Shown here piece by piece: positions 1,012 to 36,485 of a stretch of 39,566 bases of DNA. The translations under genes were made by a program, and so were the position numbers. This stretch comes from Dehalococcoidia bacterium. GTDB taxonomy: Bacteria > Chloroflexota > Dehalococcoidia > Dehalococcoidales > UBA1222. The stretch is taken from positions 1-39,566 of the forward strand of contig WRNP01000002.1 of assembly GCA_009776515.1 (NCBI GenBank), in the 5' to 3' direction. The notes under the pieces were generated by a model. It saw only the letters and a program-made list of their open reading frames with translations, was not told where the DNA came from and ran no database searches. Each line of letters starts with the position of its first letter. Within the stretch, counting starts at the first letter, position 1.

Positions 1012-1109
1012 TTATGCGTGTAATACATGAGTTACGACCTATTTTCGGCCCCTCTCAGTCAGCGAGATCCTTAATAAAAACAGTATTTACCTAATGGCAA
1101 TGGTATGAA

Positions 1110-2213: not shown

Positions 2214-2310
2214 GCACAAAATTGCACATCGTGGCTCCGTTCGACAAACAACCTAATGGGGCAACTGCTTCCTTTTTACAGCGGTAATAATAACGATAAG
2301 GACGGAAAAA

Positions 2311-5188: not shown

Positions 5189-6133
5189 ATGTCAAAAAAC
5201 AAACTGCTCCTCAAAATCAGCCCCGCTCTTTGGAGCCTTGCTATATTCATCATTGCCCAAGCCCTCACTTTCGCCACCGTGTGGCGGCAAGACCCTTTTT
5301 TGGAAGAAGCGGGTATCTATGTGCCGTCCCAGCCATCCGACATCGTCTCGCTCTGGCCGGGCGAGGTCGTCCTGCCTGACGACACAGTGGTCGATGTCCC
5401 AGCCTACTCTGCCCTGGGGCCCATTATCATCTATTTCTTCGTGGTCGTGGTCATTGTCGGTCTGGTCCTCTATTTCCTTCCGCTCCATTTGCTTCAGAAG
5501 CTGATGCGAATCCTGTTCGGGATACTTTTCGGCTGGAGCGTCTTTGTGATTCTAGCCATCTGGCTACCATTGGTACCAAGCTTGGTACTCGCCGTAGCGG
5601 TAGGGCTGGCTTGGCTCTTATATCCCCGAGTATGGCTGCATAACGGGGTTATGCTGCTAGCCATGGTCAGCCTAGCAGCAGTATTCGGGCGCTTCATCAC
5701 CCCCTGGACCGCAGTGGTCTTGCTGGCGGTCCTTGCCATCTACGACTTGCTGGCAGTGCGCTTCGGATTCATGGTATGGATGGCCAGCAAGCTCTCCCTC
5801 ACCAACGCCATGCCTGCTTTCGTTTTCCCCCGTAAAAGCAAGGGGTGGCGCTCAAGTCTCCAGGAGGCCTCTTTTGACCACACCGAGGATGAAAAACCTG
5901 GAGAGCGGCGCTTCTCTATCTTGGGAGGCGGTGACATCGCTTTTCCCCTGCTCGTATCCGCCTCAGCTTTCTTCGCTTTCGGCTTAAGTTCGGCAATGCT
6001 CGTAGCTGTCTTCGGGCTAATCGGGCTCCTTGCAGCTTACGCCATCCAATTGGTGTTGCTCAAGGGGCGACCTATGCCCGCCCTGCCTCCCATTGCCGTC
6101 ACGTGCGCGGTAGGAATACTGCTGGTAAGCTGA
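5189..6133 (+). CDS. presenilin/signal-peptide-peptidase-like intramembrane aspartyl protease (A22 family, archaeal PSH-like)
   Basis: Polytopic membrane protein carrying, in the right order, YD (LAIYDLLAV), GxGD (LGGGDIAFPL) and PAL (PMPALPP) motifs. Confidence 0.7.
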   Translation: MSKNKLLLKISPALWSLAIFIIAQALTFATVWRQDPFLEEAGIYVPSQPSDIVSLWPGEVVLPDDTVVDVPAYSALGPIIIYFFVVVVIVGLVLYFLPLHLLQKLMRILFGILFGWSVFVILAIWLPLVPSLVLAVAVGLAWLLYPRVWLHNGVMLLAMVSLAAVFGRFITPWTAVVLLAVLAIYDLLAVRFGFMVWMASKLSLTNAMPAFVFPRKSKGWRSSLQEASFDHTEDEKPGERRFSILGGGDIAFPLLVSASAFFAFGLSSAMLVAVFGLIGLLAAYAIQLVLLKGRPMPALPPIAVTCAVGILLVS

Positions 6134-18034: not shown

Positions 18035-18370
18035 CTAAAGCGTTATCGCCTGATCTACCCCTCCGACGCTACCGAGGGCACTGTACAGGTCGGGGAAGCA
18101 CCCGATGCCAGCTTTAGATACTAAGCTGTCGGCAATATTGCGCTGGTAACAACACTGGTCACAGCCCATCACCATCATGCCGGTTTTTTCCGCCAAGGCA
18201 TTAATGCGCTGCCCCAACGGGTTATTCTTCTCGATGAGCAAGGTGTTGTCAAACATAAAGAACATGCCGACCACGTTGGCACCATGACGATTATCCTCGA
18301 GTTGTGGCACGATCATCATCGCCAGAATATCAAACGACCTGGGGCTTTCAAAGATGTAAGCAACTTTCAC
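18035..18370 (-). CDS. DsrE/DsrF-like sulfur(selenium)-relay family protein
   Basis: 111 aa. MKVAYIF..., VVGMFFMFDN, MVMGCDQCCYQRNI and VDQAITL fit the DsrE-fold pattern. The gene diverges from the ABC/reductase operon. Confidence 0.55.
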   Translation of the reverse strand: MKVAYIFESPRSFDILAMMIVPQLEDNRHGANVVGMFFMFDNTLLIEKNNPLGQRINALAEKTGMMVMGCDQCCYQRNIADSLVSKAGIGCFPDLYSALGSVGGVDQAITL

Positions 18371-18617: not shown

Positions 18618-19466
18618 ATGTCTCAGCTCTGCGTAGAAAGCGTAACCAAGGCTTATGCTAACAACAATAAGGAAAGGCATGTCGTTCTCAGAGATTTAAG
18701 TTTCGGCGTCAGAACGGGGGAGTTCGTATCGTTGCTTGGCCCATCGGGTTGCGGCAAGACAACCATCCTCCGCATCATCGCCGGCTTTTTGAAACCCACA
18801 AGCGGGCGGATTATGATCGGCGATGACGAAGTTACCCAACCCGGCCCTGACCGCGCTTTCGTTTTTCAATCTTATGGGCTGTTTCCCTGGATGACCATCA
18901 AGGCCAATATCCTTTACCCCATGCAGCAACAGAAGATGCCCCAACCAGAGCAGGAACAGCAACTTAACATGTTGCTGGCGTTAGCCAAATTGGAGGGCAA
19001 GGAGAAGCTTTATCCACACCAGCTTTCAGGCGGTATGCAGCAGAGAACAGCAGTAATTAGAGCGCTGGCCTGTCATCCCAAGGTACTCCTAATGGATGAG
19101 CCCCTGGGAGCAGTGGATATGCAGATGCGACACAAGTTGCAGGAGGACATGGAGCGTATCTTTATTGACAGCCCCGCCACCGTGGTCATGGTAACCCATG
19201 ATGTTGATGAGGCAGTGTTTATGAGCAACCGCATCTTGGTCATGTCCGACTGCGAAGGCAAGCTCGCCGGCGACCTGTCTATCCCCCTACCTCATCCTCG
19301 CAACCGCCACAGCCTAGAATATCAACAACTCGTGAGTAAGTTGGGCGACCTATTACAGAATATGCATCACGAAAAGGAAATCAGTGATTGGAACAATATA
19401 AAAAACATTATGGAGGAAATACCGATTGAAAGCAAAGCAGCCGACTGTTGCTGTAATGCCACATAA
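18618..19466 (+). CDS. ABC transporter ATP-binding protein, NitT/TauT (SsuB/TauB-like) family, with a Cys-rich C-terminal tail
   Basis: Walker A GPSGCGKTT, signature LSGGMQQRTAVIRAL and Walker B LLMDEPLGAVD are present. The C-terminus ends ...KAADCCCNAT. Confidence 0.9.
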   Translation: MSQLCVESVTKAYANNNKERHVVLRDLSFGVRTGEFVSLLGPSGCGKTTILRIIAGFLKPTSGRIMIGDDEVTQPGPDRAFVFQSYGLFPWMTIKANILYPMQQQKMPQPEQEQQLNMLLALAKLEGKEKLYPHQLSGGMQQRTAVIRALACHPKVLLMDEPLGAVDMQMRHKLQEDMERIFIDSPATVVMVTHDVDEAVFMSNRILVMSDCEGKLAGDLSIPLPHPRNRHSLEYQQLVSKLGDLLQNMHHEKEISDWNNIKNIMEEIPIESKAADCCCNAT

Positions 19467-19986
19467 TAGAGAGGGGTTCTGTGCACAGGGTAACCGCCCA
19501 AGAGCGCGGCTGAAGATTTGCCTGTTCGCTGTTAGCGCCTACTGTTTGATAATCGCGCTTATGTTAGCTGCTTGCGGCGGCACTTCCGACATACCACTAC
19601 TACCCGGCCTGCCAGAGGCTATTGCTTTTTGGCAAAAGCAGGCACCTGATGACGCATTGGTCTTATCCATCAGCGGCGATATCAACGGCGATCGGCGGCC
19701 TGATACTTTGATTATCTATCGGACACCGAGTGGGGAATGTCTGTTTATTGGCATACTTGACACCATAGATGGTTACCAACTAACAGACACCATCATGGCA
19801 CCGCTGGAAAACCAGGCGATGTTTATCCGCAATATTGGTGGCAACCAGTCTGTGGCAGTTTTCGTGTCGGGACAAAATGGAGATAAAGTAGGCCTTGGCT
19901 GCTTTCAGCTTATCGGAGCAGAGTGGATTAATCCGTTTGGCGGGGGAATTTTCGATGGCGATTATGCCGCTTGTTGCGGCTTATAA
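19456..19986 (+). CDS. hypothetical lipoprotein with an FG-GAP-like DxNGDxxxD motif
   Basis: The signal peptide has the lipobox LMLAAC. The motif ISGDINGDRRPD is present, and the C-terminus ends ...AACCGL. The start is uncertain (ATG 19456 or TTG 19426). Confidence 0.55.
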   Translation: MPHNREGFCAQGNRPRARLKICLFAVSAYCLIIALMLAACGGTSDIPLLPGLPEAIAFWQKQAPDDALVLSISGDINGDRRPDTLIIYRTPSGECLFIGILDTIDGYQLTDTIMAPLENQAMFIRNIGGNQSVAVFVSGQNGDKVGLGCFQLIGAEWINPFGGGIFDGDYAACCGL

Positions 19987-20232
19987 CGCTAAGTACCACT
20001 TGATGGAAGCGCTCATGCGCAATATAGACGCGGGATATTGGACTCGCTTGGCGTAAGTTGGGCGACTTACTCAAAATAGGTTGCCCGAAAAGAAAGGTGG
20101 TGCCCGGAACAATGCAGAAATTTCTTAATGTCAATACCGGTCGAGCGCAACAACGGCCGATTGTTGTTAAGGTGCCACATAAGTGTGGCATATCAAACAA
20201 AAATAAAATGTCTAACAGAAAGAGAGGCTATC

Positions 20233-21420
20233 ATGGGTACACCAAATAATGGCATCTATGCCAAGTCCGGCGGGTTATCACGCCGGGAATTTCTGAAAGA
20301 TGCCGGGCTCATTATCGGCGGTGCCGCTATAGGATCTATGACTTTCTTGAATTCCTGCAAAGGATCTGATGAGCCAACGGGCTCAAGCTCTGGTGTAACA
20401 ATGGATCCTTACACTGTCAATCTTCTTTACTACAATTGTGATCACATGACCCCTGGCCCCATTGGTTATGACCTTGGCATTTATCGTGAACTGGGTGTCA
20501 ACGTCAACATCAGCGGCAATGGCAATGTTCCAACCGCCTTCGCGGCCGGGCAGGGTGACATCGGCTATGTTGGAGTGGGTAACATTGAGATAGCTGCCGC
20601 TGGTGGTGCTCCGCTGACAGTGGTAGCCGACAATTTCCTAGGTGGCTCTTATTATTTGGTAGTCGCCAACAACATTGAATCTCCGGAGGAACTACTTGGC
20701 AAACGCCTAGCATTAGGAGACCGGCCAGAAATCAACAACTCCAGCTGGGTAGCGATGGCCAATGCTCTCGACCTGCCCATTGAGGGGGATAATTACCAGA
20801 CGTCCAGCATCTCCGGTGACTCCAACAAATTTCTGGCTTTGGCTGCCGGTCAGATTGACGGCTATACCTGCTGTGACCCCTGGGGGTCTATGGCAGTGTA
20901 CGAGAAAATAGGCAAGGCCATGGGTACTTTCCTTGACGTTTTACCCGGAAACCAAAAAGCCGATTGTTGCGGGCTGACCATGAATGATTCATTCATCAAA
21001 AACCACCGCGCGTTGGCCGTAAAAATGGTGCTAGGCCATACCCGGGCAATTGAAGCCATGTATATCCACCCCCTCAAGAGTGCGCTCAGTTTCGCTAAAA
21101 CCTATGGTGTGCCGCTTGAGGTAGCCATGATGACCGTCTACCGCAAGACCAATGGCGAAGGACGCATGATGACTTGGGATATGCACACTGAGCCGAATAT
21201 TGTAACCAGGCTCGATAACACTTTTAACTACTACAAAGACATAGGCATGACCCAGTACCAAACATTGGTTCCCGCCACAACATTCGTCGACTCAACACTA
21301 CTGGATGAATGTGGGGCCAACGATTTTAATACATTTATCACAACCCAGGTTGATCCGGTGTACCCGCTGGGCATGTCATACGATGACTGGTACAAAAAGG
21401 CTCTAGAGACGGATGTCTAG
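20233..21420 (+). CDS. Tat-signal lipoprotein, ABC substrate-binding protein (NMT1/SsuA/TauA-like)
   Basis: ATG 20233 follows AGAGAGG. It has the twin-arginine motif SRREFLKDAG and the lipobox FLNSC. The periplasmic-binding-fold sequence contains two vicinal Cys pairs (YTCCDPWG and KADCCGL). Confidence 0.8.
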   Translation: MGTPNNGIYAKSGGLSRREFLKDAGLIIGGAAIGSMTFLNSCKGSDEPTGSSSGVTMDPYTVNLLYYNCDHMTPGPIGYDLGIYRELGVNVNISGNGNVPTAFAAGQGDIGYVGVGNIEIAAAGGAPLTVVADNFLGGSYYLVVANNIESPEELLGKRLALGDRPEINNSSWVAMANALDLPIEGDNYQTSSISGDSNKFLALAAGQIDGYTCCDPWGSMAVYEKIGKAMGTFLDVLPGNQKADCCGLTMNDSFIKNHRALAVKMVLGHTRAIEAMYIHPLKSALSFAKTYGVPLEVAMMTVYRKTNGEGRMMTWDMHTEPNIVTRLDNTFNYYKDIGMTQYQTLVPATTFVDSTLLDECGANDFNTFITTQVDPVYPLGMSYDDWYKKALETDV

Positions 21421-21721
21421 CCTCAGGCACCTTGGGCAGCGAGCAATGACAGAAAGCGCAACGGGCAGCTTTTCTTCGAATTGCCATTATGCCAACTTCC
21501 GACTAGCTTTGGCGCGATGGGGAGGGCAATATGTCACGACCCGCCCGGTGCCTCTCTTGACGAAAGAGCGCCCTGGTCGCCTTTCTATACCATATACCAG
21601 CAATATCGTTTTCTGGAACTGGGCAACAAGTAAGCTAGCGACCACTTGTGATCTAGACTGCTGTGGCTTTGGACTGACCGGCAATCACATAGCAAGCCGT
21701 GAGCGCCAGGGAGGAGTGTGA
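21413..21721 (+). CDS. hypothetical 102-aa ORF filling the binding-protein/permease gap
   Basis: The ATG overlaps the upstream stop (ATGTCTAG), and the ORF fills the whole ~300-nt gap. It contains CDLDCCGFG. I recognise no domain and the composition is atypical, so it may be non-coding. Confidence 0.3.
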   Translation: MSSLRHLGQRAMTESATGSFSSNCHYANFRLALARWGGQYVTTRPVPLLTKERPGRLSIPYTSNIVFWNWATSKLATTCDLDCCGFGLTGNHIASRERQGGV

Positions 21722-21724
21722 TTC

Positions 21725-22567
21725 GTGGAATCAGAACCGCGTCCGGTTTTTAATGCCAGTGCAACATTTGAAAAGCTGAAAAATACGGTCCTCGTTGGCG
21801 ATCGCGGGCGCCGCTTTCCTCAGCTTCACTGGCTGATAACGTTAGGTGTGATTTTCATAATTTGGCAGATGGCAGCCATGCGTTTCAACAACAAACTGCT
21901 GATGCCAACTCCTTGGGCTACCATTCAAGCTCTGGCATCCGCCGTGCATGATGCCGAGATACTGCAAGGTCTTGTTTACACCATGAGGCGCATCCTCATC
22001 GGGTTCTTGCTCGCCTGTGCCATAGGTTTGCCCCTTGGCTTTGCCATGGGGTATTCCAGGACTTTTCTTAAGTTCCTTGACCCCATTATCAACTCCGTCC
22101 GCCTAATCCCGATGATGGCATGGGTTCCCTTGAGCATCGTATGGTTCGGCTTGGGAGATGGTCCTTCCGTTTTCATGATTACCTTGGTTGGTATCTTCCC
22201 CATCATGCTCAGCACCATCGCCGGTGTACACGAAATTTCCCCCGACTATTACCATGCCGCACGCAGTATGGGCGCTTCGCGGTGGGGCATTTTTCGCAAT
22301 GTCATTATGCCGGGGTCACTGCCCGGTATTTTAACAGGCCTGCGCCTGGCGCTGGGAAATGGGTGGATGGCCGTCATATGAGCGGAGTTCATTGCCACCC
22401 AGTTTGGGTTTGGCCACGCAATGGTTTGGTACCAAACACTGCTTCGGACTGACATGGTGATGGCGCTAATGATTATGGCAGGTATGATCGGCTTCACCAT
22501 CGACCGCAGTATGCTGTTTCTCAATCGCAAGGCATCCAAGTGGAAATATGTTCAGGCCGCTGAATAG
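21725..22567 (+). CDS. ABC transporter permease (TauC/SsuC-like) interrupted by an in-frame TGA at 22379-22381
   Basis: GTG 21725 lies 8 nt after GGGAGGAG. The same frame continues past the TGA as AEFIATQFGFGHAMVWYQTLLRTDMVMALMIMAGMIGFTIDR..., the expected C-terminal part of a BPD-type permease. Total length is 280 codons. Confidence 0.75.
22394..22414 (+). other. stem-loop 13 nt downstream of the TGA at 22379 (candidate SECIS-like element)
   Basis: GCCACCC (22394-22400) pairs with GGGT..GGC (22406-22414) with a 2-nt bulge; the loop is AGTTT. Folded by eye only. Confidence 0.2.
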
Positions 22568-22579
22568 GGAGGAAGCATC

Positions 22580-23776
22580 ATGATTAATCCGTCAACACTT
22601 GAAGAGTACACCCAGTTAAGGCCCACCAGTCTAGAGGCATTTGAAATGCTACGGCGTGACAATGCCTCTATCCTGCTCCGTGAAAAGGAAAAGGGCAAGC
22701 GCATCATCGGGGCATATTGCACCTATTTCCCCCGCGAATTGGCCCAGGCCATGGGGGCCATCTATGTCGGTTTATGCGGCACTATTGATGCCCCGATTGC
22801 CGCTGCAGAGAAAGATCTGCCGCGCAATCTATGCCCTCTGATCAAATCTTCATACGGACTAGCTATAACCGACCGCTGTCCCTATTTCGTCATGGCCGAC
22901 ATGATCATCGGTGAAACCACTTGCGACGGCAAGAAGAAGATGTTTGAATTACTCAGCGAAAAGGGCTTAAAAAACATCTACGTCATGCACTTGCCGCAAG
23001 TACCGGATGAACCATCGTCGCTGGCGCTGTGGATATCCGAGTTACGTCGCCTGAGGACGTATCTCGAAAGCACCTTTGGGGTCACCATCACCGACGAGTC
23101 GTTACGCGAAGCCATCCATCTCACCAACGAGGAGGCCCGTGCCCGCCAGGCTATGTTCGACCTCAATAAACGCAAGCCGGCGGTACTCTCTGGTATGGAT
23201 ATGGTCAACATCACTTTTCTGACCGGATTCCAAGCCGACCGCCAAGAATCGATCCGCATGGTAGATGCCGTTACAGCAGAACTAACGGAAAAAGCCAATA
23301 ATGGGTATGCGGTGGGCACGCTCTTAACCAAGCGCATCCTATTAACTGGCACCCCCGTAGGTATCGGAAACGAAAAGGTGGTAAAGCTGGTGGAAGAAGC
23401 TGGGGCGCTCATCGTCGCCAAGGAGACCTGCGGCGGCTACAAAACCGTTGGGTTGCGCATTGATGAAAACGACCCCCGTGATCCAATCGTGCTATTAGCC
23501 GAAAAATACCTCAAGATCCCATGTTCGGTGATGTCTCCAAACGGTGACCGCCTGGGGCTACTGGAACGCATGGTGAAAGACTTCCAAGTCGATGGCGTAA
23601 TAGACCTGACATGGCAGGCCTGCCACACCTATAATGTAGAATCTTACGCCGTCGCCAAACTTGTTGAAGAAAAGTTAAGGCTGCCGTTCCTGCACTTAGA
23701 AACGGACTATTCCCAGTCAGACACAGAAACGCTCAGGGTGCGCATTGAGGCGTTTTTGGAAACCATTAATAACTAA
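22580..23776 (+). CDS. 2-hydroxyacyl-CoA dehydratase / benzoyl-CoA reductase B/C-family protein (single-subunit, double-cubane-cluster-protein-like)
   Basis: 398 aa with the family's scattered Cys ligands (AYCTYFP, GLCGT, NLCPLIK, DRCPYF, ETTCDGKKK, ETCGGYK, IPCSV, QACHTYN). It is followed by a cognate activase. Confidence 0.8.
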   Translation: MINPSTLEEYTQLRPTSLEAFEMLRRDNASILLREKEKGKRIIGAYCTYFPRELAQAMGAIYVGLCGTIDAPIAAAEKDLPRNLCPLIKSSYGLAITDRCPYFVMADMIIGETTCDGKKKMFELLSEKGLKNIYVMHLPQVPDEPSSLALWISELRRLRTYLESTFGVTITDESLREAIHLTNEEARARQAMFDLNKRKPAVLSGMDMVNITFLTGFQADRQESIRMVDAVTAELTEKANNGYAVGTLLTKRILLTGTPVGIGNEKVVKLVEEAGALIVAKETCGGYKTVGLRIDENDPRDPIVLLAEKYLKIPCSVMSPNGDRLGLLERMVKDFQVDGVIDLTWQACHTYNVESYAVAKLVEEKLRLPFLHLETDYSQSDTETLRVRIEAFLETINN

Positions 23777-23787
23777 AACCTTGTAGC

Positions 23788-23865
23788 CGCTTAGTTTATC
23801 AGACACCATCATAGGCAATGATGTTTGCAGCTATTATGGTGTTGGCGCACCTGATAAGCTAAGCG
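23788..23865 (+). other. long intergenic hairpin (15-bp stem) inside the operon
   Basis: CGCTTAGTTTATCAG (23788-23802) pairs with CTGATAAGCTAAGCG (23851-23865). All 15 positions pair in plus-strand RNA, one as a G-U pair. The 48-nt interior has its own 7-bp helix, 23803-23809 with 23836-23842. Confidence 0.5.
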
Positions 23866-23956
23866 ACGGCCAATACTGGTTGCTGGTAGCTAAAAACGGC
23901 GCGCCGCACAGTATACTCAAAAAAAATATAGCGATCCTACATAACAAAGGCGGGTT

Positions 23957-24232
23957 ATGAATAATGCAGAGATAAAAAGATGGGCATACCATGGTGACAG
24001 CATCATAATTTTCACTGAGCCATACGAAACCATCAGGGCTAATAAGCTACTACAGTCCTTTGGATTAGATGCCAAAATCGTATCACCGCACCCAAAATTG
24101 AGAATGGGCTGCTGTGCGCTGGGGCTGGAAATCAGCCTAACACAAAAAGCAGACATTGAACTTCTTTTTAAAAACCATGATATTGGTTATCACCAAATAA
24201 TAGAAAACCACGCAATGGGACACGGATCTTAG
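23957..24232 (+). CDS. DUF3343-family small protein (Pfam family annotated, from memory, as putative Se/S carrier-like)
   Basis: 91 aa. IIIFTEPYETIRANKLLQSFGLDAKIVSPHPKLRMGCCALGLEI fits the DUF3343 pattern, with its conserved Cys-Gly-type loop here as GCC. Confidence 0.6.
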   Translation: MNNAEIKRWAYHGDSIIIFTEPYETIRANKLLQSFGLDAKIVSPHPKLRMGCCALGLEISLTQKADIELLFKNHDIGYHQIIENHAMGHGS

Positions 24233-25003
24233 ATGCTTGTCTCAGGATTGGACGTGGGATCGCGCACCATCGCCCTGGTCGAATGGGATGGTGTCCAGGT
24301 GGTGCGAGAGGAGGTTGTCTTCACCGGCACCAGCCCGCTGGAAAATTCTCAAAAACTCACCAGGGGACGGCACTACGATCGTATGATAGCCACGGGCTAC
24401 GGTCGTCACTTCATCACCGAACATAGCTTGGCAGACGGCGTCATAACCGAAATCAAAGCCTATGCCCTGGGTGCCAAACAGCTTTTTCCCGATGCCCACA
24501 CCGTACTAGATATCGGCGGGCAAGATAGTAAAGTCATCCTGATGAGTGGCAACGGCAACGTTATCAAGTTTGAAATGAATGACCGCTGCGCTGCTGGCAC
24601 AGGGCGATTCTTGGAGAACATGGCTTCTGCTCTCGGCCTGAGCGTTGCGGAGTTGGGGGTCCACGCATTGCGTGCCGAGAAAAGTATCCCCCTTTCCAGC
24701 ATGTGCACCGTTTTCGCCGAAAGCGAAGTCGTTTCACTGATTGGGCAAGGCGCAGACAGCCACTGTGTGGCGCTTGGTATTCATGAGGCTATTGTTAACC
24801 GGATTAATGCAGTCGTACAAAGAGTCGGAATAAATCCTAGTTTCGTATTCGCCGGAGGGGTGGCTTACAACCCATGCATGCGCAAGTTGTTGGCCGAAAA
24901 ACTATGCCCTGAAATAAATGTCCCGTCCGACCCCCAGACCGTGGGCGCACTGGGGGCAGCTATCCAAGCACAAAACGATCTGCAGAAAGGACAGGCGTCA
25001 TGA
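24233..25003 (+). CDS. BcrA/BcrD/HgdC-type ATPase activase (CoA-substrate-specific enzyme activase family)
   Basis: It has the acetate/sugar-kinase-fold motifs GLDVGSRT and LDIGGQDSKV, and the two cluster-bridging cysteines NDRCAAGTG and SSMCTVFAES. It starts directly after the upstream stop and overlaps the next gene in an ATGA junction. Confidence 0.9.
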   Translation: MLVSGLDVGSRTIALVEWDGVQVVREEVVFTGTSPLENSQKLTRGRHYDRMIATGYGRHFITEHSLADGVITEIKAYALGAKQLFPDAHTVLDIGGQDSKVILMSGNGNVIKFEMNDRCAAGTGRFLENMASALGLSVAELGVHALRAEKSIPLSSMCTVFAESEVVSLIGQGADSHCVALGIHEAIVNRINAVVQRVGINPSFVFAGGVAYNPCMRKLLAEKLCPEINVPSDPQTVGALGAAIQAQNDLQKGQAS

Positions 25004-26034
25004 CATATTGGAGCGATGCCCTGGGCCGAGCTTGGAGTTTCCTCGCCGCATTTTTCTCGCCGGGAGTAGTCGTCGGACTTTGTTTTGCCTTTCTCCTGGC
25101 CGGAGCTATCAATATTTTCATCCCAAAATCCCTAGTAATAAAATACCTTGGAGATGGTTCCAACAAATTCCTGGCCTACTCCGTGGTCATCATAGCAGGA
25201 ATACTGCTCTCAGTCTGATCATGCACTGCTATACCGCTGTTCAGCAGTATTCGTAAACGTGGAGCCGGCCTGGGGCCAGCCATAGCCTTTTTACTGGCAG
25301 CCCCCGCGCTGGATATCGTCCCCATAGTACTTACCTTCAAGGTGATGGGTACGGTTATGGGTTGGATGCATGTACTGGGCGTAGCTGCCTTTAGTGTCAT
25401 CATGGGTTTTGCCATGCAAGCCATTTTCCGAGAAAGCCCCGAGGCATCTGCCACTAAGCTCGCGGCTGTACCTGATACCGAGATTGCTAAGCCATGGTGG
25501 ACTCACAGTATTTTTTTCGGGCTATTGATATTGGCTCTGGTCTTTGCTCTTGATGGAAACTGGCTCGCCTTAGGATGCGCCCTGATAACCTTGCTCGCTG
25601 TCCTGTTCCGTTTATATTCCAAAGAGGACTGCAAGGCATGGATTGGCGCTTCCGGCCAATTCATCAGAAGTATATTGCCATGGCTGTTGATTGGTTCCGT
25701 AGGAGCCGCCATCGTGGCCGGACTCTTGCCAAGCGCCCTGGTGCTCAGGCTGGCCGGCGGCAGCTCTCTGCAGTCTTCATTCACAGCTTCGTTTCTCGGC
25801 ACTCTACTTTATGTTTGCCCTCCCTCTGAGGTAATGTTCGCCAGGGCATTTGTTGACCTCGGTATGGGCATGGGGCCGGCTCTGGCTTTCCTGATCACGG
25901 CACCTGCTATTTCATTGCCTAGTATCATAATACTGAATCGCGTCATTGGATGGAAAAAAACTTTGACAAACACCATAATGTTAATATGCCTGGCGGCCCT
26001 GCTCGGTTTCGTACGCGGGTTTATAGTAGCATGA
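25000..26034 (+). CDS. ArsP/DUF318-family permease with an in-frame TGA at 25216-25218 on the first Cys of the CSC motif (probable selenoprotein)
   Basis: The two ORF-track pieces (25000..25218 and 25342..26034) are in the same frame, and no other stop lies between them. The read-through gives ...IIAGILLSV-U-SCTAIPLFSSIRKRGAGLGPAIAFLLAAPALD. This is the family core motif, which I recall as vCSCg.vP....G...g.a.aFL.a.P. The protein's own second half has Cys at the equivalent spot (YVCPPSE...GMGPALAFLITAPAIS). Confidence 0.75.
25225..25248 (+). other. stem-loop 7 nt downstream of the TGA at 25216 (candidate SECIS-like element)
   Basis: ACTGCT (25225-25230) pairs perfectly with AGCAGT (25243-25248). 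The 12-nt loop is ATACCGCTGTTC. Folded by eye only. Confidence 0.25.
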
Positions 26035-26047
26035 CCCAGGAGGAAAT

Positions 26048-26311
26048 ATGGTAACCATCAGGGTGTTTACCTCAATCCCCAGCTGACCATCGTGTGACTC
26101 GGAAGAGAAAAAGGCTCGCCGCGTCGCCTCAAAATTCCCCGTCGGGGAAGTACAAGTACTCACTTTCACAGCTATGTCTGAAGAGGGGGAGAAATACAAC
26201 ATTTTCCTTACTCCCGCAGTCATGGTGGATGACCGGATCATTTCTGCAGGGAAAGGCATATCTGAAAAAGAAATAGAAAAGGCAGTAGGCCAAGTAATAA
26301 ACAGAGTTTGA
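26048..26311 (+). CDS. thioredoxin-fold protein (redox-active disulfide protein 2 / MTH895-ArsE-like) with TGA at the first position of the CxxC motif (UxxC, probable selenoprotein)
   Basis: It is missing from the ORF track because of the TGA at 26084-26086. AGGAGG lies 4 nt upstream of ATG 26048. The translation is MVTIRVFTSIPS-U-PSCDSEEKKARRVASKFPVGEVQVLTFTAMSEEGEKYNIFLTPAVMVDDRIISAGKGISEKEIEKAVGQVINRV. The spacing of beta1-CxxC and the ...TPAvmvdg..i..G..s..EI tail matches the ~80-aa family. Confidence 0.7.
26094..26127 (+). other. composite stem-loop 8 nt downstream of the TGA at 26084 (candidate SECIS-like element)
   Basis: GTGAC/GTCGC, CGG/CCG and GAG/CTC helices are separated by small internal loops. 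The apical loop is AAAAAGG. Folded by eye, and weak. Confidence 0.2.
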
Positions 26312-26331
26312 TCCGTGAACCAGGATCAAAC
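26306..26331 (+). terminator. hairpin at the operon end (9-bp stem, no T tract)
   Basis: GTTTGATCC (26306-26314) pairs with GGATCAAAC (26323-26331). The hairpin overlaps the stop codon of the thioredoxin-fold gene. Confidence 0.4.
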
Positions 26332-26448
26332 CAAGGGGATTGTTAGGAAACCAAGATTATCTGCGGGTGAAAGCGTCCCGCTTTTTGCCTGTCGAGTTAA
26401 CCTACAGACGACATGATTGATTAGTGTCCGATGATATCACAAAACAAC

Positions 26449-26474
26449 ACCGAGAGGCTCAATGGCCTCTCGGT
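26449..26474 (-). terminator. intrinsic terminator for the small minus-strand gene
   Basis: ACCGAGAGGC (26449-26458) and GCCTCTCGGT (26465-26474) form a 10-bp stem. On the minus strand it is followed by GTTGTTTTGTG. Confidence 0.6.
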
Positions 26475-26509
26475 ATGCCTGTCACTGAATAGCCTACGGC
26501 AGATTATAA

Positions 26510-26725
26510 CTAACAGGCTTTACGCTTGCGACGCACAAAATGAAATTCAATACGGCGACCATTACGGGGAGTCCCCTGCTTGGCGGTGTTTTCGATAAAG
26601 GACTTCATTTCTTCTGGGGTAAGTTGATCACCTTTTTTCGGTTCGGCTTTGGCTGTTTTTGGCAAGGTGGCACTCCGTCTGTATAGAATTGACTCTATTA
26701 TAGCAGGACCCAAGTCCGCTGCCAA
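26510..26725 (-). CDS. small basic hypothetical protein
   Basis: A terminator lies downstream. A better-supported start is the TTG at 26665, 7 nt after GGAG, giving the 51-aa product MPKTAKAEPKKGDQLTPEEMKSF...RRKRKAC. I recognise no family. Confidence 0.35.
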   Translation of the reverse strand: MAADLGPAIIESILYRRSATLPKTAKAEPKKGDQLTPEEMKSFIENTAKQGTPRNGRRIEFHFVRRKRKAC

Positions 26726-27001
26726 ACAGGATCAGTAAATCCTTGGGTGACGTCCATCCTGCCACAATTATCGCGGAGAGGATCTGCGCATAACAGGCTA
26801 TCCTACCCTCGCAGGGCAACGCTCATGAAAAAGACAGGTGTAATCAAGATCATGGATTAATAATATGCGCTCCGGCAAGTGACCATGACGATGCGATGGC
26901 AATAATTGGTAGCCCAGATCCCCTAGATAGCGAACGGTGGTGCCGTCCGTAGTGGACTGGGCAGGAAATACTCCAGCCATGGATGACAAGACTGCATATG
27001 A

Positions 27002-27817
27002 CTATTGCTGGCAGCGCGGACAGTAATAGGTACCACGCCCTCGAAAAAAGATGCGCTCTATCATCCCGCCGCAACCTGCCAAACATGCCTGCCCAGCCCG
27101 GCGCGCCACTTGAAATGCCAGGTGCGCTCCCCCTTTCTCGCCGCCGGGACGGTAATAGTTGACCAAACTGGCTCCCTTGCGGGCGATACCTTCTCGGAGA
27201 ACACGACGTATCTCAGCATGCATGCGACGAACCTCTGCTTGAGTGAGCGAGCCCGCAAGGCGCTTGGGACTTAAGCGCGCCGCAAAGAGGATCTCGTCCG
27301 CATAGAGGTTACCAATTCCAGCAATGATCCCCTGGTTCAAAAGAACAGCCTTGAGGGGCAAGTTGCGCCGCGCCAGAATCTCCGAGAGGCGCTTTGCGGT
27401 GAACTCCCGCGCCAGGGGCTCCGGACCGAGTTTTTGAAGCACCGCCGCCTCCGGTCCGACTAATTCGAATCGCCCAAAACGGCGCGGGTCAACGAAGAAG
27501 AGGGCTACCCTGTCGCCAATATGAATAATGGCACGGGTGTGTTTAGGCAGTTCAGAGGAACCCAGGGACGCTTGAAATGATCCGGTCATCTTATGGTGTA
27601 CCAAAAGCAATTTGTCGCTCTCCAGACGAAAAACCAGATATTTGCCGCGCCGAGAAAGGTTCGTGACGGCTTGCCCGGCAACCTCTGCGTTAAGTTTATC
27701 CGGAGTACACGCACGCAGGGTAGATAACGAGAGAATATCTATTTTCCTGATAACCTGCCCCACAACAATGGGGGTAAGCTCATTCTTAATGGTTTCGACT
27801 TCAGGCAGTTCGGGCAT
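27002..27817 (-). CDS. mutM: formamidopyrimidine-DNA glycosylase
   Basis: The MPELPEVE N-terminus requires the ATG at 27817, not the TTG at 27820. The C-terminal zinc finger CPRCQ is present. Confidence 0.9.
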   Translation of the reverse strand: MPELPEVETIKNELTPIVVGQVIRKIDILSLSTLRACTPDKLNAEVAGQAVTNLSRRGKYLVFRLESDKLLLVHHKMTGSFQASLGSSELPKHTRAIIHIGDRVALFFVDPRRFGRFELVGPEAAVLQKLGPEPLAREFTAKRLSEILARRNLPLKAVLLNQGIIAGIGNLYADEILFAARLSPKRLAGSLTQAEVRRMHAEIRRVLREGIARKGASLVNYYRPGGEKGGAHLAFQVARRAGQACLAGCGGMIERIFFRGRGTYYCPRCQQ

Positions 27818-31365: not shown

Positions 31366-31551
31366 GCCCGAGACAGAACCCAGCCATTTCTTCCTTCAAC
31401 CCCGCCATCGCTTATGTGTGTAGTAGATGCCACTTTCTTTGTGCGAGTACCCCCCAACAAGAGGAACGACTCGGTAGTTTATCAAAAACGGTCCGTTTTC
31501 GACTTCGTGCCTATTGCGACATCTTAAAAACGCAACCAGATGCCCCACCCC

Positions 31552-31580
31552 TTGACGCCAGAGCGAATCCGAGTAATAAT
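31552..31580 (+). promoter_or_regulatory. candidate promoter of the cytochrome gene
   Basis: TTGACG (31552-31557), a 17-nt spacer, then AATAAT (31575-31580). Confidence 0.35.
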
Positions 31581-31614
31581 ACTCCTTACCGAACACTTGA
31601 TTAAGGAGGGTGAT

Positions 31615-32964
31615 ATGCCTGCACACCGCACCGCCAAATTGTCGGTAGCTTTTGCCGCCACTCTCATTGCCGCCCTTGTACTTGGCTTCTCCTCGGGCGA
31701 AAAAGTTGCCGCCCAGGACGAGAGTGACTGTATCACCTGTCACGCCACGGAGACCCCGGGCGTCGTGGAACAGTGGCTTGGAAGCAAGATGTCAGAATGG
31801 TTTGACTGTAGCATGTGCCATGGGGTCGCCCACTCAACCAATGACGATGTCGATAAGGTCAATCTGCCCACCCCCAGCACCTGCGCCCCCTGCCATAGGA
31901 CTCAGGTAGAGCAGTACCGTGAGGGCAAGCATGCCCTAGCTTGGACTGCCATGAACGCCATACCGTTTGTAGCGCAAATGCCGGAATCTCTCGGGGGGGC
32001 TGATGGCTTCAAGGGTTGCTCCGGATGTCACAAGATCGGCGAGAAGACCGAGGAAGTCATGCAGGACTGGGATGCCCCTTACGGTAGCGCTTCCTGCGAC
32101 TCCTGCCATACCCGCCACCTCTTTAGCAAGGCTGAGGCACAAGACCCACGCGCCTGCCAGCTATGTCATATCGGCTTTGATCACCCGCAGTGGGAAACTT
32201 GGTCCACCGCCAAACATGGCTCCATCTGGGCCATAGAAGAAGATTCGGGCCGCACCCCCACTTGCCAGAATTGCCACCTGCCAAATGGCACCCACACTAA
32301 CATCACCGCCTGGGGCTTCTTGGCGTTGCGAGCTTATGCTGAAGATGACCCCGCCTGGCAGGCCGATCGGGAAACCATCCTCAAGGCCCTAGGGGTGCTG
32401 GATGCCCAGGGGAATCCCACCGAACTGCTGGATGCCCTGGTCGGCATCAACCTAGTGCGCACCACTGAGGAGGAATTTATGGCTCTCCGCAACCAGATGA
32501 CAGCCATCTGCGGGGAGTGCCACTCATCCGGGTTCGTTGAACAGCAGATGAATGCCAACGATGATCTCATCCGTCGGGCTGACAGTATGATGGCCGAAGC
32601 CATTGATGTGGTGAACGGCCTTTATAAAGACGGCTTCCTGGCAAAACCGACTGGCTGGGACTACGCGCCAGATCTCCTCCAATTCTATAACACTGAAAGC
32701 AATATCGAAAACGAACTGTTTACCATGTTCCTACAGTACCGCCAGCGCACTTTCGTAGGCGCTATCCATGCCAATCCCGACTACACATACTGGTACGGCT
32801 ACGCCTCTATGCAGAAATCACTCCAGACGATAAAGGATGAGGCGGAGCTCCTGCGAGCGACCAAGGACGGGACATCGCCCAGTAGCACCGTCGGCTACGT
32901 TGCATTGGGGCTGGGAGTTCTGGCGCTCCTCGCCGGCGGTTTTGCTCTCATACGTCGACATTAG
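31615..32964 (+). CDS. octaheme c-type cytochrome, hydroxylamine-oxidoreductase-like family, with a C-terminal TM anchor
   Basis: ATG 31615 lies 4 nt after AAGGAGGG and is followed by a signal peptide. There are eight CxxCH motifs (CITCH, CSMCH, CAPCH, CSGCH, CDSCH, CQLCH, CQNCH, CGECH). GFDHPQWE and HANPDYTYWYG are reminiscent of HAO-type proteins. The C-terminal helix is VGYVALGLGVLALLAGGFALI. Confidence 0.8.
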   Translation: MPAHRTAKLSVAFAATLIAALVLGFSSGEKVAAQDESDCITCHATETPGVVEQWLGSKMSEWFDCSMCHGVAHSTNDDVDKVNLPTPSTCAPCHRTQVEQYREGKHALAWTAMNAIPFVAQMPESLGGADGFKGCSGCHKIGEKTEEVMQDWDAPYGSASCDSCHTRHLFSKAEAQDPRACQLCHIGFDHPQWETWSTAKHGSIWAIEEDSGRTPTCQNCHLPNGTHTNITAWGFLALRAYAEDDPAWQADRETILKALGVLDAQGNPTELLDALVGINLVRTTEEEFMALRNQMTAICGECHSSGFVEQQMNANDDLIRRADSMMAEAIDVVNGLYKDGFLAKPTGWDYAPDLLQFYNTESNIENELFTMFLQYRQRTFVGAIHANPDYTYWYGYASMQKSLQTIKDEAELLRATKDGTSPSSTVGYVALGLGVLALLAGGFALIRRH

Positions 32965-35611: not shown

Positions 35612-35757
35612 CAGTCGCGTTTTTTCCTAACCCTAACGGTCAGACCGAGCAGGGTGCCCAAATGTTGGGAACCCCATTTTATTGTTAGAGGAGGTAACCA
35701 CCAAGAAAACATCGCGCCATGGAAAACATTGAAAGAAAAAACACAAAGGAGCAACAG

Positions 35758-36483
35758 ATGACCAAAAAAACCAAGGGGAAAGAGGGGCAGCTCTCCCGCC
35801 GGGAGTTTCTGCGGGATGCCGGACTGGTAGTAGGCGGAGCAACCGCCGTTGCCATGCCACTCCTCGCTGCCTGTGATAGCCCTACCACGGCCACAACCAC
35901 GGCCACGGCTACCACAACTGTAACTGTGACCACTGCACCCATTACGACTGTCACCACAATACCCACTACGACCGTGACTGTAACCGCCCCGCCCACTGTT
36001 GACCCGCCGGCTACCGCCTCGGCAATCAGCACCATTGAGCTCACCGTGAACGGCTTAAAACGTTTGGTTCAAATCGAGCCGCACCAAACATTGGCCGATA
36101 TGCTACGGGATACTCTAGGCCTCACAGGGACCAAGGTGGGATGCGACCGAGGTGCCTGCGGTGCCTGCACGGTGCTCGTCAACGGTAAGCCCGTGCTTGC
36201 CTGCATGATGCTAGCCATTGAGGCGGGCGAAACGAGCGTCACCACCATTGAAGGGCTCGCCGTAAAGGGAGAGCTCAGCCCCCTGCAGCAAGCCGTCTAC
36301 GACCATACAGGTTACCAATGCGGTTTCTGCACCCCAGGCCTCATTATGGAGGCCACCGCCCTTTTGGCTGAAAAGCCCCAGCCAACCATGGAGGAGATGA
36401 AAGCCGCTTTCGGCGGGCACATCTGCCGCTGCGGGGCCTATTACTCATTCATGGAATCCGTTACCCTAGCAGGAGGTAAATAG
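35758..36483 (+). CDS. [2Fe-2S]-binding small subunit of a xanthine-dehydrogenase-family molybdoenzyme, with Tat signal, lipobox and Thr-rich linker (PaoA-like)
   Basis: ATG 35758 lies 6 nt after AAGGAG. It has the Tat motif SRREFLRDAG and the lipobox LLAAC. A ~47-aa T/V/A/P linker follows, then CDRGACGACTV and CGFCTPG/CRCG cluster motifs. Confidence 0.85.
   Translation: MTKKTKGKEGQLSRREFLRDAGLVVGGATAVAMPLLAACDSPTTATTTATATTTVTVTTAPITTVTTIPTTTVTVTAPPTVDPPATASAISTIELTVNGLKRLVQIEPHQTLADMLRDTLGLTGTKVGCDRGACGACTVLVNGKPVLACMMLAIEAGETSVTTIEGLAVKGELSPLQQAVYDHTGYQCGFCTPGLIMEATALLAEKPQPTMEEMKAAFGGHICRCGAYYSFMESVTLAGGK
35878..36018 (+). repeat. low-complexity Thr-rich linker coding region (ACN/GTN codon repeats)
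   Basis: It encodes SPTTATTTATATTTVTVTTAPITTVTTIPTTTVTVTAPPTVDPPATA. It also creates the spurious mirror ORF on the minus strand. Confidence 0.8.
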
Positions 36484-36485
36484 CT

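What the first reader, a model, noticed from the sequence alone, without database searches (positions are those of the whole stretch)
25000..26034. ArsP/DUF318-type permease with TGA replacing the first Cys of its CSC motif (U-S-C)
The ORF track splits this gene into 25000..25218 and 25342..26034. Both pieces are in frame 1, and the only stop between them is the TGA at 25216.

Reading through gives V-U-S-C-T-A-I-P-L-F-S-S-I-R-K-R-G-A-G-L-G-P-A-I-A-F-L-L-A-A-P. This is the core of the predicted-permease family, which I recall as vCSCg.vP...G...aFL.aaP.

The protein's own inverted-repeat second half has Cys at the matching position (Y-V-C-P-P-S-E...G-P-A-L-A-F-L-I-T-A-P). That serves as an in-sequence control.

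A perfect 6-bp hairpin starts 7 nt after the TGA.

A selenocysteine inside the substrate path of a membrane permease would be unusual. It fits a thiophilic substrate: ArsP exports trivalent organoarsenicals through a cysteine pair.
Basis: partly seen in the sequence, partly recalled or inferred. Interest (0 to 1): 0.85.

Follow-up and report, generated by a model that had tools for sequence, protein, structure and literature searches.

The report
Selenocysteine permease in SAO locus
The "split" membrane-transporter gene is really one gene whose internal TGA encodes selenocysteine in its conserved Cys-Ser-Cys motif; this type of selenoprotein permease is already catalogued in a sister family, but here it sits, with a selenocysteine thioredoxin-like partner, inside a selenium-rich "SAO" transport locus of an uncultured Dehalococcoidia bacterium.

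Summary
Window 25000..26034 is one 344-codon gene with a single in-frame TGA (25216-25218). Read through, it is a full-length ArsP_1/PF03773 permease (E=2.7e-52). The TGA falls on the first Cys of the invariant V-C-S-C-T motif.

In 160 related loci the column reads TGT or TGC 147 times and TGA 10 times. The TGA forms occur in at least four separate lineages. Both sides of the TGA are under purifying selection (dN/dS about 0.07-0.11). TGA is also a normal stop elsewhere in the window. Sec-type genes carry a hairpin with a GUUC or GGUC loop 21 nt after the TGA, and it is much stronger than in Cys-type homologs.

The gene lies in a SAO (selenocysteine-assisted organometallic) locus: SaoD, SaoA, SaoC, SaoX, SaoP (also Sec), a double-cubane reductase, a Se/S-carrier-like protein and an activase. 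It occupies the SaoE position. A thioredoxin-like gene with U-P-S-C follows it. A syntenic Dehalococcoidia locus has Cys at all three Sec sites.

USC permeases are already catalogued for the SO_0444 family (Haft & Gwadz 2022; 2026 review). I therefore rate this a new member of a known kind, of moderate interest. Its transport function is inferred, not shown.

The parts
25000..26034 (+). Permease gene, 344 codons including Sec73 (ArsP_1/PF03773 family). Its ATG overlaps the stop of the upstream activase gene (ATGA at 25000-25003).
   Evidence: Both NCBIfam equivalog models are far below cut-off (SO_0444 93.6 bits against 300; SaoE 87.3 against 325).
25216..25218 (+). In-frame UGA, read as Sec73, the first position of the U-S-C motif.
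   Evidence: The column is TGT or TGC in 147 related genes and TGA in 10. dN/dS for codons 74-114 is 0.076.
25222..25224 (+). Cys75 codon (TGC), the second thiol of the U-S-C motif.
   Evidence: Invariant in alignments A1 and A3.
25231..25250 (+). Candidate bacterial SECIS upper hairpin. Stem 25231-25238 pairs with 25243-25250, with one C.A mismatch in this copy. The GUUC tetraloop is at 25239-25242, which is +24..+27 from the U of UGA.
   Evidence: 90% of cells are paired across 9 Sec-type genes, with a G-C to A-U compensatory pair. Local MFE averages -12.3 kcal/mol in Sec-type genes against -6.5 in 139 Cys-type genes.
25225..25248 (+). It is mutually exclusive with the conserved register.
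   Evidence: 83% of cells are paired across orthologs. As isolated hairpins in the window it scores -5.8 kcal/mol against -4.3 for the conserved register.
25816..25818 (+). Cys273 codon, the pseudo-symmetric counterpart of Sec73 in the second repeat (Y-V-C-P-P-S-E).
   Evidence: alignment of the two halves. In the model of Cys ortholog P0006 both motifs sit at helix breaks.
26048..26311 (+). Thioredoxin_3 (ArsE/MTH895-like) partner gene of 87 codons, with in-frame TGA 26084-26086 giving U-P-S-C. GGAGG lies 5 nt upstream of its ATG.
   Evidence: PF13192 41 bits against cut-off 24.8. Orthologs carry UPSC or CPSC. The downstream hairpin at about 26094-26127 is conserved, with compensatory changes in L161.
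21725..22567 (+). SaoP ABC permease, 280 codons, with in-frame TGA 22379-22381 (Sec).
   Evidence: NF040733 351.8 bits against cut-off 295. Cys sits at this column in L003. The downstream hairpin has a GUU loop at +24.
18618..19466 (+). SaoA, ABC ATP-binding subunit.
   Evidence: NF040729 369.4 bits against cut-off 360.
19426..19986 (+). SaoC-like protein ending in ...CCGL.
   Evidence: NF040734 70.6 bits, just below the cut-off of 80.
20128..21420 (+). SaoX substrate-binding subunit. The gene caller's start corresponds to window 20233.
   Evidence: NF040735 401.8 bits against cut-off 300.
22580..23776 (+). Double-cubane-cluster anaerobic reductase.
   Evidence: NF040772 488 bits against cut-off 350.
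23957..24232 (+). Se_S_carrier-like small protein (PF11823).
   Evidence: 32 bits against cut-off 25.
24233..25003 (+). BcrAD/BadFG-type ATP-dependent activase.
18035..18370 (-). SaoD-like DsrE-related protein, transcribed divergently.
   Evidence: NF040732 157 bits, just below the cut-off of 169.

Best explanation
Window 25000..26034 is a single gene for a 344-residue secondary transporter of the ArsP_1/PF03773 superfamily. UGA 25216-25218 is decoded as selenocysteine (Sec73).

Shown here:
- The UGA replaces the first Cys of the invariant CSC motif.
- The gene is intact and under purifying selection on both sides of the UGA.
- Sec-type genes carry a hairpin with canonical bacterial-SECIS geometry: a 7-8 bp stem and a G(U/G)UC loop starting 21 nt after the UGA.
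- The gene belongs to an operon that holds two further Sec genes (SaoP and a U-P-S-C thioredoxin-like protein). All three sites are Cys in a syntenic relative.

Inferred:
- Sec73 and Cys75 sit at a helix break in repeat 1, and Cys273 sits at the equivalent break in repeat 2. Together they would form a soft selenolate/thiolate site in the translocation path for a thiophilic metal(loid) or organometal(loid).
- The protein plays the SaoE role in this SAO locus: it exports the metal species that SaoA/X/P imports and the double-cubane reductase processes.
- The adjacent ArsE-like U-P-S-C protein either hands the substrate to the permease or reduces a Sec73-Cys75 selenenylsulfide.

The direction of transport (efflux) and the substrate are extrapolated from characterised ArsP (methylarsenite efflux) and from the SO_0444 and SaoE annotations.
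For: Gene structure and family:
- In-frame TGA and intact reading frame.
- Full-length PF03773 match.

The column across relatives:
- Cys in 77 of 78 codons read across the 79 species-representative genome loci, and in 70 of 77 metagenome loci. TGA in L002/L081, L084-L088, L158, L001 and L161.
- Sec forms fall in at least four places in the clustering.
- Database gene calls are truncated exactly at ...SV.

Selection and genetic code:
- dN/dS is 0.06-0.11 upstream and downstream of the TGA, including codons 74-114, which have no restart codon.
- Stops of 29 window genes are TAG 13, TGA 8 and TAA 8, so the code is standard.

SECIS:
- Local MFE averages -12.3 kcal/mol in Sec-type genes against -6.5 in Cys-type genes (p about 7e-5).
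- The first loop base is G in 8 of 8 Sec-type genes, against about 27% of Cys-type genes.
- 90% of cells are paired, against 19-54% in shifted controls, with one compensatory pair.

Operon context:
- SaoA, SaoX, SaoP and the double-cubane reductase all score above NCBI's curated cut-offs. A SaoD-like gene is also present.
- U in the window and L002 corresponds to C in L003/L082 at all three sites.
- Seven of eight USC permeases with a readable partner have U-P-S-C in that partner.

Indirect support for Sec machinery:
- Every SAO-bearing species has Sec, and 955 of 970 high-scoring double-cubane proteins occur in SelD-positive genomes.
- Dehalococcoidia MAGs carry 46-49 selenoproteins.

Structure and precedent:
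- In the model of the Cys ortholog the CSC and CPP motifs lie at helix breaks.
- USC selenoproteins are known in the SO_0444 family.
Against: - No selA, selB, selC or selD gene and no tRNA lies in the window, so decoding capacity is only inferred.
- The window's own hairpin is the weakest of the Sec set. It has a C.A mismatch, scores -7.6 kcal/mol locally, and is not more stable than shuffled sequence.
- No Rfam SECIS model matches.
- Covariation is limited to one pair because the stem is coding. Nine of 139 Cys-type genes also form a 7-bp stem.
- The Sec-versus-Cys hairpin comparison is not phylogenetically corrected.
- The protein scores far below the SaoE and SO_0444 equivalog cut-offs.
- The locus lacks SaoL and SaoB within the window.
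- The structural model has moderate confidence (pLDDT 75, and about 58-60 around the CSC motif), and I could not measure distances.
- No experimental data bear on substrate or direction.
Confidence: 0.8

Rival explanations
1. The TGA is a genuine stop, from a nonsense mutation, pseudogene or assembly error, and the permease is not made full-length.
For: Gene callers split the gene. GenBank annotates the closest ortholog as a 250-aa 'permease' (MCL2141068.1). The window's hairpin is weak.
Against: The same TGA occurs at the same column in independent assemblies and in lineages of 40-73% identity. dN/dS is about 0.07 in the 40 codons after the TGA, which have no start codon. The column is otherwise always Cys. 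Two more TGAs in the same operon also align with Cys.
Confidence: 0.03
2. The UGA is read through, but not as Sec. Near-cognate Cys or Trp would be inserted, or the lineage would carry a stop-codon reassignment.
For: Sec machinery was not observed in the window.
Against: TGA terminates 8 of 29 genes in the window, including this one. The in-frame TGAs fall only at Cys columns of redox or metal motifs (USC, UPSC, the SaoP gate), and each has a downstream hairpin. Related Dehalococcoidia have large selenoproteomes.
Confidence: 0.04
3. It is a true selenoprotein permease, but its substrate is a selenium or sulfur species (selenide, a persulfide or thiosulfate-like compound) rather than a metal(loid). 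It may act in uptake, working with the Se/S-carrier-like protein and the Trx-like protein.
For: A PF11823 Se_S_carrier gene lies two genes upstream here, and directly upstream of the permease in L161. A TusA gene follows the pair in the P0046 contig. A YeeE-like fragment is present in L161. Double-cubane proteins associate tightly with SelD.
Against: Characterised or annotated relatives are metal(loid) exporters: ArsP, SO_0444 Cu/Zn efflux and SaoE. The ArsP-ArsE pair is arsenic-induced in P. mercurii. L161 pairs the module with an ArsR-type regulator and a MerB-like gene.
Confidence: 0.13

Closest known systems
SO_0444 family Cu/Zn efflux transporter selenoproteins (NCBIfam NF033936; e.g. WP_014809615.1, Desulfomonile tiedjei)
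   Same: Same superfamily (ArsP_1/PF03773). Sec occupies the same position, giving Sec-Ser-Cys in place of Cys-Ser-Cys. Already catalogued as a selenoprotein family.
   Different: The window protein scores 93.6 bits against a cut-off of 300, in two partial stretches. It has a second-repeat C-P-P-S-E motif. It sits in a SAO locus with a Sec thioredoxin-like partner.
SaoE (CD2367 family efflux transporter of the SAO locus; NF040736)
   Same: Same superfamily and the same CSC motif. Same operonic position, next to the thioredoxin-like gene and alongside SaoA, SaoC, SaoX, SaoP, SaoD and a double-cubane reductase.
   Different: It scores 87.3 bits against a cut-off of 325. SaoE was reported never to contain Sec, whereas this protein does. 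The SAO loci described were mostly in Firmicutes, spirochetes and deltaproteobacteria, whereas this one is in Dehalococcoidia and lacks SaoL and SaoB in the window.
ArsP methylarsenite/roxarsone(III) efflux permease (Campylobacter jejuni; Chen et al. 2015) with its ArsE (PF13192) neighbour
   Same: PF03773 fold family. From my own recollection of Chen et al. 2015, which was not retrievable here, two conserved cysteines are required for transport. A permease plus PF13192 thioredoxin-like gene pair occurs in an arsenic-induced operon of P. mercurii ND132.
   Different: No Sec has been reported in ArsP. The window gene is not in the ars operon, which lies about 22 kb upstream in the same window. 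The substrate has not been tested.
SaoT / PF13192 thioredoxin-like selenoproteins (comparison for the partner gene)
   Same: Small Thioredoxin_3 fold. A UxxC motif is listed for SaoT.
   Different: The window partner scores only 16.4 bits against the SaoT cut-off of 65, and 35.5 bits against the TIGR00412 cut-off of 62. It is a distinct PF13192 subfamily.

Membership tests
Pfam ArsP_1 (PF03773) predicted permease superfamily | HMM score above the gathering threshold over the full domain | tested here: met
   178.2 bits against 32.3, covering residues 24-340 on profile positions 17-293 of 294.
Pfam ArsP_1 (PF03773) predicted permease superfamily | Conserved CSC motif followed by G-x-G-P-A-x-A-F-L, and an internal two-fold repeat | tested here: met
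   V-[C/U]-S-C-T is invariant in alignments A1 and A3. The two halves align with E=8e-10.
Bacterial selenoprotein gene | In-frame UGA aligned with Cys in homologs, with an intact and conserved ORF on both sides | tested here: met
   147 Cys codons against 10 TGA. dN/dS is 0.06-0.11.
Bacterial selenoprotein gene | SECIS stem-loop immediately downstream, with the apical loop about 16-37 nt from the UGA and a G at the start of the loop (criteria as I recall them from bSECISearch and E. coli fdhF) | tested here: met
   GUUC loop at +24..+27. The hairpin is enriched in Sec-type over Cys-type genes and 90% of cells are paired across orthologs. The window's own copy is weak (C.A mismatch), and no Rfam model matches.
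Bacterial selenoprotein gene | The genome encodes selA, selB, selD and tRNA-Sec | not testable with these tools
Only indirect support is available.
SO_0444 family Cu/Zn efflux transporter (NF033936) | Equivalog HMM score of at least 300 bits | tested here: not met
   93.6 bits.
SaoE efflux transporter (NF040736) | Equivalog HMM score of at least 325 bits | tested here: not met
   87.3 bits.
SaoE efflux transporter (NF040736) | Encoded within a SAO cassette next to the thioredoxin-like gene | tested here: met
   Gene order is SaoD(-), SaoA, SaoC, SaoX, SaoP, double-cubane reductase, Se_S_carrier, activase, permease, Trx-like. The same order occurs in L002 and L003.
SAO system (Haft & Gwadz 2022) | SaoA, SaoP and SaoX present and above curated cut-offs, with Sec at the SaoP gating position | tested here: met
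   369.4 against 360, 351.8 against 295 and 401.8 against 300 bits. SaoP carries TGA 22379-22381.
SAO system (Haft & Gwadz 2022) | SaoL (MerB-like lyase) and SaoB present in the cassette | tested here: not met
   No MerB-like match in the window. SaoX is the only substrate-binding protein found. SaoC and SaoD are just below their cut-offs. These genes could lie elsewhere in the genome.
ArsP organoarsenical exporter (functional family) | Confers MAs(III)/Rox(III) efflux that depends on the cysteine pair | not testable with these tools
   This needs transport or resistance assays.

The most novel reading that the evidence does not exclude
In some anaerobes the permease and its thioredoxin-like neighbour have switched together from Cys to Sec (USC with UPSC). 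They would form a dedicated selenolate relay: the cytosolic U-P-S-C protein passes an organometal(loid) directly to the Sec73/Cys75/Cys273 site of the exporter, or resolves its selenenylsulfide.

In Dehalococcoidia this Sec pair has replaced SaoE and SaoT. Even the 'safety-valve' exporter of the SAO system would then depend on selenium, contrary to the published rationale that SaoE stays Sec-free.

The coding sequence for P-L-F-(S/G)-G-I is intrinsically palindromic (CCGCUGUUCAGCGG). It may act as a latent SECIS, which would explain why the Cys-to-Sec switch recurs.
Probability: 0.25. Interest if true: 0.6.

Novelty: new member of a known kind. Interest (0 to 1): 0.42.

Why it matters
Annotation: this gene and its orthologs are currently annotated as truncated fragments. 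GenBank MCL2141068.1, for example, is a 250-aa 'permease'. The neighbouring Trx-like and SaoP genes are truncated in the same way. Recognising the three Sec codons restores a complete nine-to-ten-gene SAO locus in an uncultured Dehalococcoidia lineage.

Biology:
- It extends the SAO system to Chloroflexota.
- It shows that the exporter position of that system can itself be a selenoprotein, which published work said did not occur for SaoE.
- It offers natural Sec/Cys ortholog pairs (window or L002 against L003) for testing what selenium adds to a transporter binding site.

It does not establish a new class of selenoprotein. USC permeases were already catalogued.

Tried and rejected
Dead ends:
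- Rfam, at gathering thresholds on the whole window and at E<=5 on 21600-27100, returned no SECIS or other RNA family.
- PDB sequence search found no homolog.
- Foldseek gave only weak matches to DASS/VcINDY and TRAP transporters (TM about 0.5, E about 0.01). I treat this as a hint of an elevator-type fold, not as evidence.
- The 72-aa N-terminal fragment searched against 1.84 billion representatives had low power (73 hits). It added only two or three further '...SV-stop' truncations.
- The primary ArsP paper (PMC4681449) is not held, and searches for its cysteine numbering failed. Statements about the ArsP cysteines therefore rest on my own recollection.

Readings considered and rejected:
- Genetic-code reassignment, because TGA is a common stop in the window.
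- A split two-polypeptide permease, because codons 74-114 are conserved and have no start codon.
- Membership of SaoE or SO_0444 as equivalogs, on HMM scores.
It is not excluded, but it is less well supported than the shifted register.
Full report
OBSERVATION

ORFs 25000..25218 and 25342..26034 share a frame and are separated by a single stop, TGA 25216-25218. The read-through gives ...AGILLSV-U-SCTAIPLFSSIRKRGAGLGPAIAFLLAAP....

With U written as C, the 344-aa product matches Pfam ArsP_1 (PF03773) almost end to end (E=2.7e-52, 178 bits).

The two halves of the protein are homologous (30% identity, E=8e-10). The second-half Cys is specific to this subclade, though. Most relatives have Y-F-A-T-L-T-E-V at that position.

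IS THE TGA A SEC CODON?

1. The aligned column.
- I read the codon directly in 160 related loci. The 79 species-representative genome loci gave 39 TGT, 38 TGC and one TGA. The 80 metagenome contigs gave 70 Cys codons and 7 TGA.
- Further TGA cases are L001 and L161.
- Database proteins P0002-4, P0010, P0013, P0046 and others are N-terminally truncated gene calls of the same kind. Representatives P0122 and P0124 are N-terminal fragments that end exactly at ...ISV.

2. Distribution. Sec forms occur in at least four places in an identity clustering:
- the window/L001/L161 clade;
- L084, next to Cys-type L003;
- the L085-88 clade;
- L158, nested in the large Cys clade.

3. Selection. dN/dS between the window, L001 and L161 is 0.06-0.11 upstream of the TGA, in the 41 codons between the TGA and the first possible restart, and downstream.

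4. Genetic code. TGA ends 8 of 29 well-supported genes in the window, including this one. The code is therefore standard.

5. SECIS.
- Sec-type genes share a hairpin in a fixed register: a stem at +16..+23 pairing with +28..+35, and a G(U/G)UC tetraloop at +24..+27. As I recall it, this is the geometry of the E. coli fdhF element.
- Across 8 distinct Sec-type and 139 distinct Cys-type sequences that encode nearly the same peptide, local MFE averages -12.3 against -6.5 kcal/mol (Mann-Whitney p about 7e-5, not corrected for phylogeny).
- All 8 Sec-type sequences have G as the first loop base, against about 27% of the Cys-type sequences.
- On the alignment of 9 Sec-type sequences, 90% of cells pair, against 19-54% for slid controls. 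One pair switches between G-C and A-U.
It shares its 3' arm with the conserved stem and is somewhat less well supported across orthologs (83% paired).
- The window's copy of the conserved stem has a C.A mismatch and is the weakest of the set.
- Rfam finds nothing.

6. Two more Sec codons in the same operon.
- The next gene (26048..26311) is a Thioredoxin_3 protein reading ...FTSIPS-U-PSC....
- The ABC permease at 21725..22567 has TGA 22379-22381. Read through, it passes NCBI's SaoP equivalog cut-off (351.8 bits against 295).
- In the fully syntenic Dehalococcoidia locus L003/L082, all three positions are Cys codons.

7. What I could not test. The window has no sel genes and no tRNA. Support for the decoding machinery is indirect.
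- Haft & Gwadz report that every SAO species uses Sec, and that 955 of 970 high-scoring double-cubane proteins occur in SelD-positive genomes. The window's double-cubane protein scores 488 bits.
- BSepDB lists Dehalococcoidia MAGs with 46-49 selenoproteins.

CONTEXT

The gene is the penultimate member of a SAO (selenocysteine-assisted organometallic) locus. In order the genes are:
- SaoD-like, 18035-18370 on the minus strand (157 bits against 169);
- SaoA (369 against 360);
- SaoC-like (70.6 against 80);
- SaoX (402 against 300);
- SaoP, with Sec;
- a double-cubane reductase (488 against 350);
- a PF11823 Se/S-carrier-like protein;
- a BcrAD-type activase, whose stop overlaps the permease start (ATGA);
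- the permease;
- the Trx-like gene.

The same order recurs in L002/L081 (Dehalococcoidia MAG Th196P4bin31, Sec-type) and in L003/L082/L083 (Dehalococcoidia fen_1014, Cys-type). I found no MerB-like SaoL or SaoB in the window.

Outside SAO loci, the permease plus Trx-like pair occurs as a two-gene module (L084, L086-88). In L161 it occurs with an ArsR-type regulator, a Se_S_carrier gene and a MerB-like gene that has its own in-frame TGA.

Seven of eight USC permeases with a readable partner have U-P-S-C in that partner. L158 is the exception, with a canonical G-C-A-K-C.

The remainder of the window is chromosomal housekeeping. An ars operon (ArsR-ArsC fusion, Acr3, ArsM) sits at its 5' end.

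The window derives from ENA sample ERZ27257302, as does L001, but from a different contig.

COMPARISON WITH WHAT IS KNOWN

Haft & Gwadz (bioRxiv 10.1101/2022.07.06.499078) state that the CSC motif "occasionally is replaced by ... [quoted passage not shown] They also state that SaoE lacks Sec in all species they examined.

The 2026 AEM review lists the SO_0444 family with UxC, SaoT with UxxC, and PF13192 thioredoxin-like selenoproteins.

A USC selenocysteine in this transporter superfamily is therefore a known kind. The window protein is an equivalog of neither family (93.6 bits against 300 and 87.3 against 325). It belongs to a distinct PF03773 subfamily found mainly in Dehalococcoidia, Actinomycetota and Zixibacteria, yet it occupies the SaoE position.

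A permease plus PF13192 pair, named ArsP-ArsE, is arsenic-induced in P. mercurii ND132.

MECHANISM

Shown: the gene structure, the Sec/Cys alternation, the hairpin, the operon membership, and the placement of CSC and CPP at helix breaks in a model of the Cys ortholog. That model has moderate confidence (pLDDT 75, pTM 0.73).

Inferred:
- Sec73, Cys75 and Cys273 form a soft-ligand site in the translocation path.
- The protein exports a thiophilic metal(loid) or organometal(loid) handled by the SAO system.
- The U-P-S-C partner delivers the substrate or recycles the site.

The main functional rival is a selenium or sulfur substrate. It is suggested by the Se_S_carrier, TusA and YeeE neighbours.

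VERDICT

The claim that this would be unprecedented is not correct.

Novelty is that of a new member: a new subfamily, a new phylum and a new operonic role for a known kind. Two modest new points emerge. The SaoE-position exporter can be a selenoprotein, and it tends to switch between Cys and Sec together with its thioredoxin-like neighbour.

Noticed in passing
window 26048-26311 (+), TGA 26084-26086: The gene immediately downstream is a Thioredoxin_3 (ArsE/MTH895-like) protein with an in-frame TGA that gives U-P-S-C. Gene callers missed it entirely or truncated it. Orthologs have UPSC (L001/L002, L161, L084, L086-88) or CPSC (L003/L082).
   Followed up: yes
window 21725-22567 (+), TGA 22379-22381: The ABC permease is a SaoP selenoprotein. 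Read through, it passes the NCBI equivalog cut-off. The downstream hairpin has a GUU loop at +24. The gene caller stops at 22381.
   Followed up: partly
window 292-3186 (+): An ars operon lies at the window's 5' end: an ArsR-ArsC fusion (292-1011), Acr3 (1110-2213; 437 bits) and the arsenite methyltransferase ArsM (2311-3186; 349 bits). No canonical arsP lies beside it. The organism can therefore presumably make methylarsenite, a known ArsP substrate.
   Followed up: no
L161 about 5502-6130 (+): The MerB-like gene after the permease/Trx pair has its own in-frame TGA (...EELWSGL-U-CKIFYFASREEA...), so it is probably a SaoL-type selenoprotein. L161 also carries an 87-aa Sulf_transp (YeeE-like) fragment that may be another truncated call.
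   Followed up: partly
L158 7001-8311: This USC permease is nested in the large Cys-type clade. Its stem sequence differs (CUGCC/GGCGG) and its loop is 7 nt. Its Trx_3 partner is a canonical G-C-A-K-C form, so the permease and its partner do not always switch between Cys and Sec together.
   Followed up: partly
L049, L077, L090, L099, L112, L117, L121, L136, L142 (Cys-type genes): Nine Cys-type homologs already form a 7-bp stem in the SECIS register, because the codons for L-P-L-F-(S/G)-G-I are near-palindromic. This may be a latent SECIS that eases repeated Cys-to-Sec switching.
   Followed up: no
window 21413-21721 (+): About 300 nt lie between SaoX and SaoP. They hold a 102-aa ORF with no family match. 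In L002, SaoP follows SaoX within about 50 nt.
   Followed up: no
window 35719-38711 (+) and 31540-32964 (+): A xanthine-dehydrogenase-family molybdenum hydroxylase (2Fe-2S subunit plus a 741-aa Mo subunit) gives sub-threshold hits to selenium-dependent XDH models. A multihaem cytochrome c gene is also present. Neither appears related to the finding.
   Followed up: no
window (whole) and L001: The window (contig k141_2780538) and L001 (contig k141_3001421) come from the same ENA sample, ERZ27257302. They carry the same Sec-type SAO locus at about 72-82% protein identity. Two related Dehalococcoidia populations therefore co-occur in that sample.
   Followed up: no
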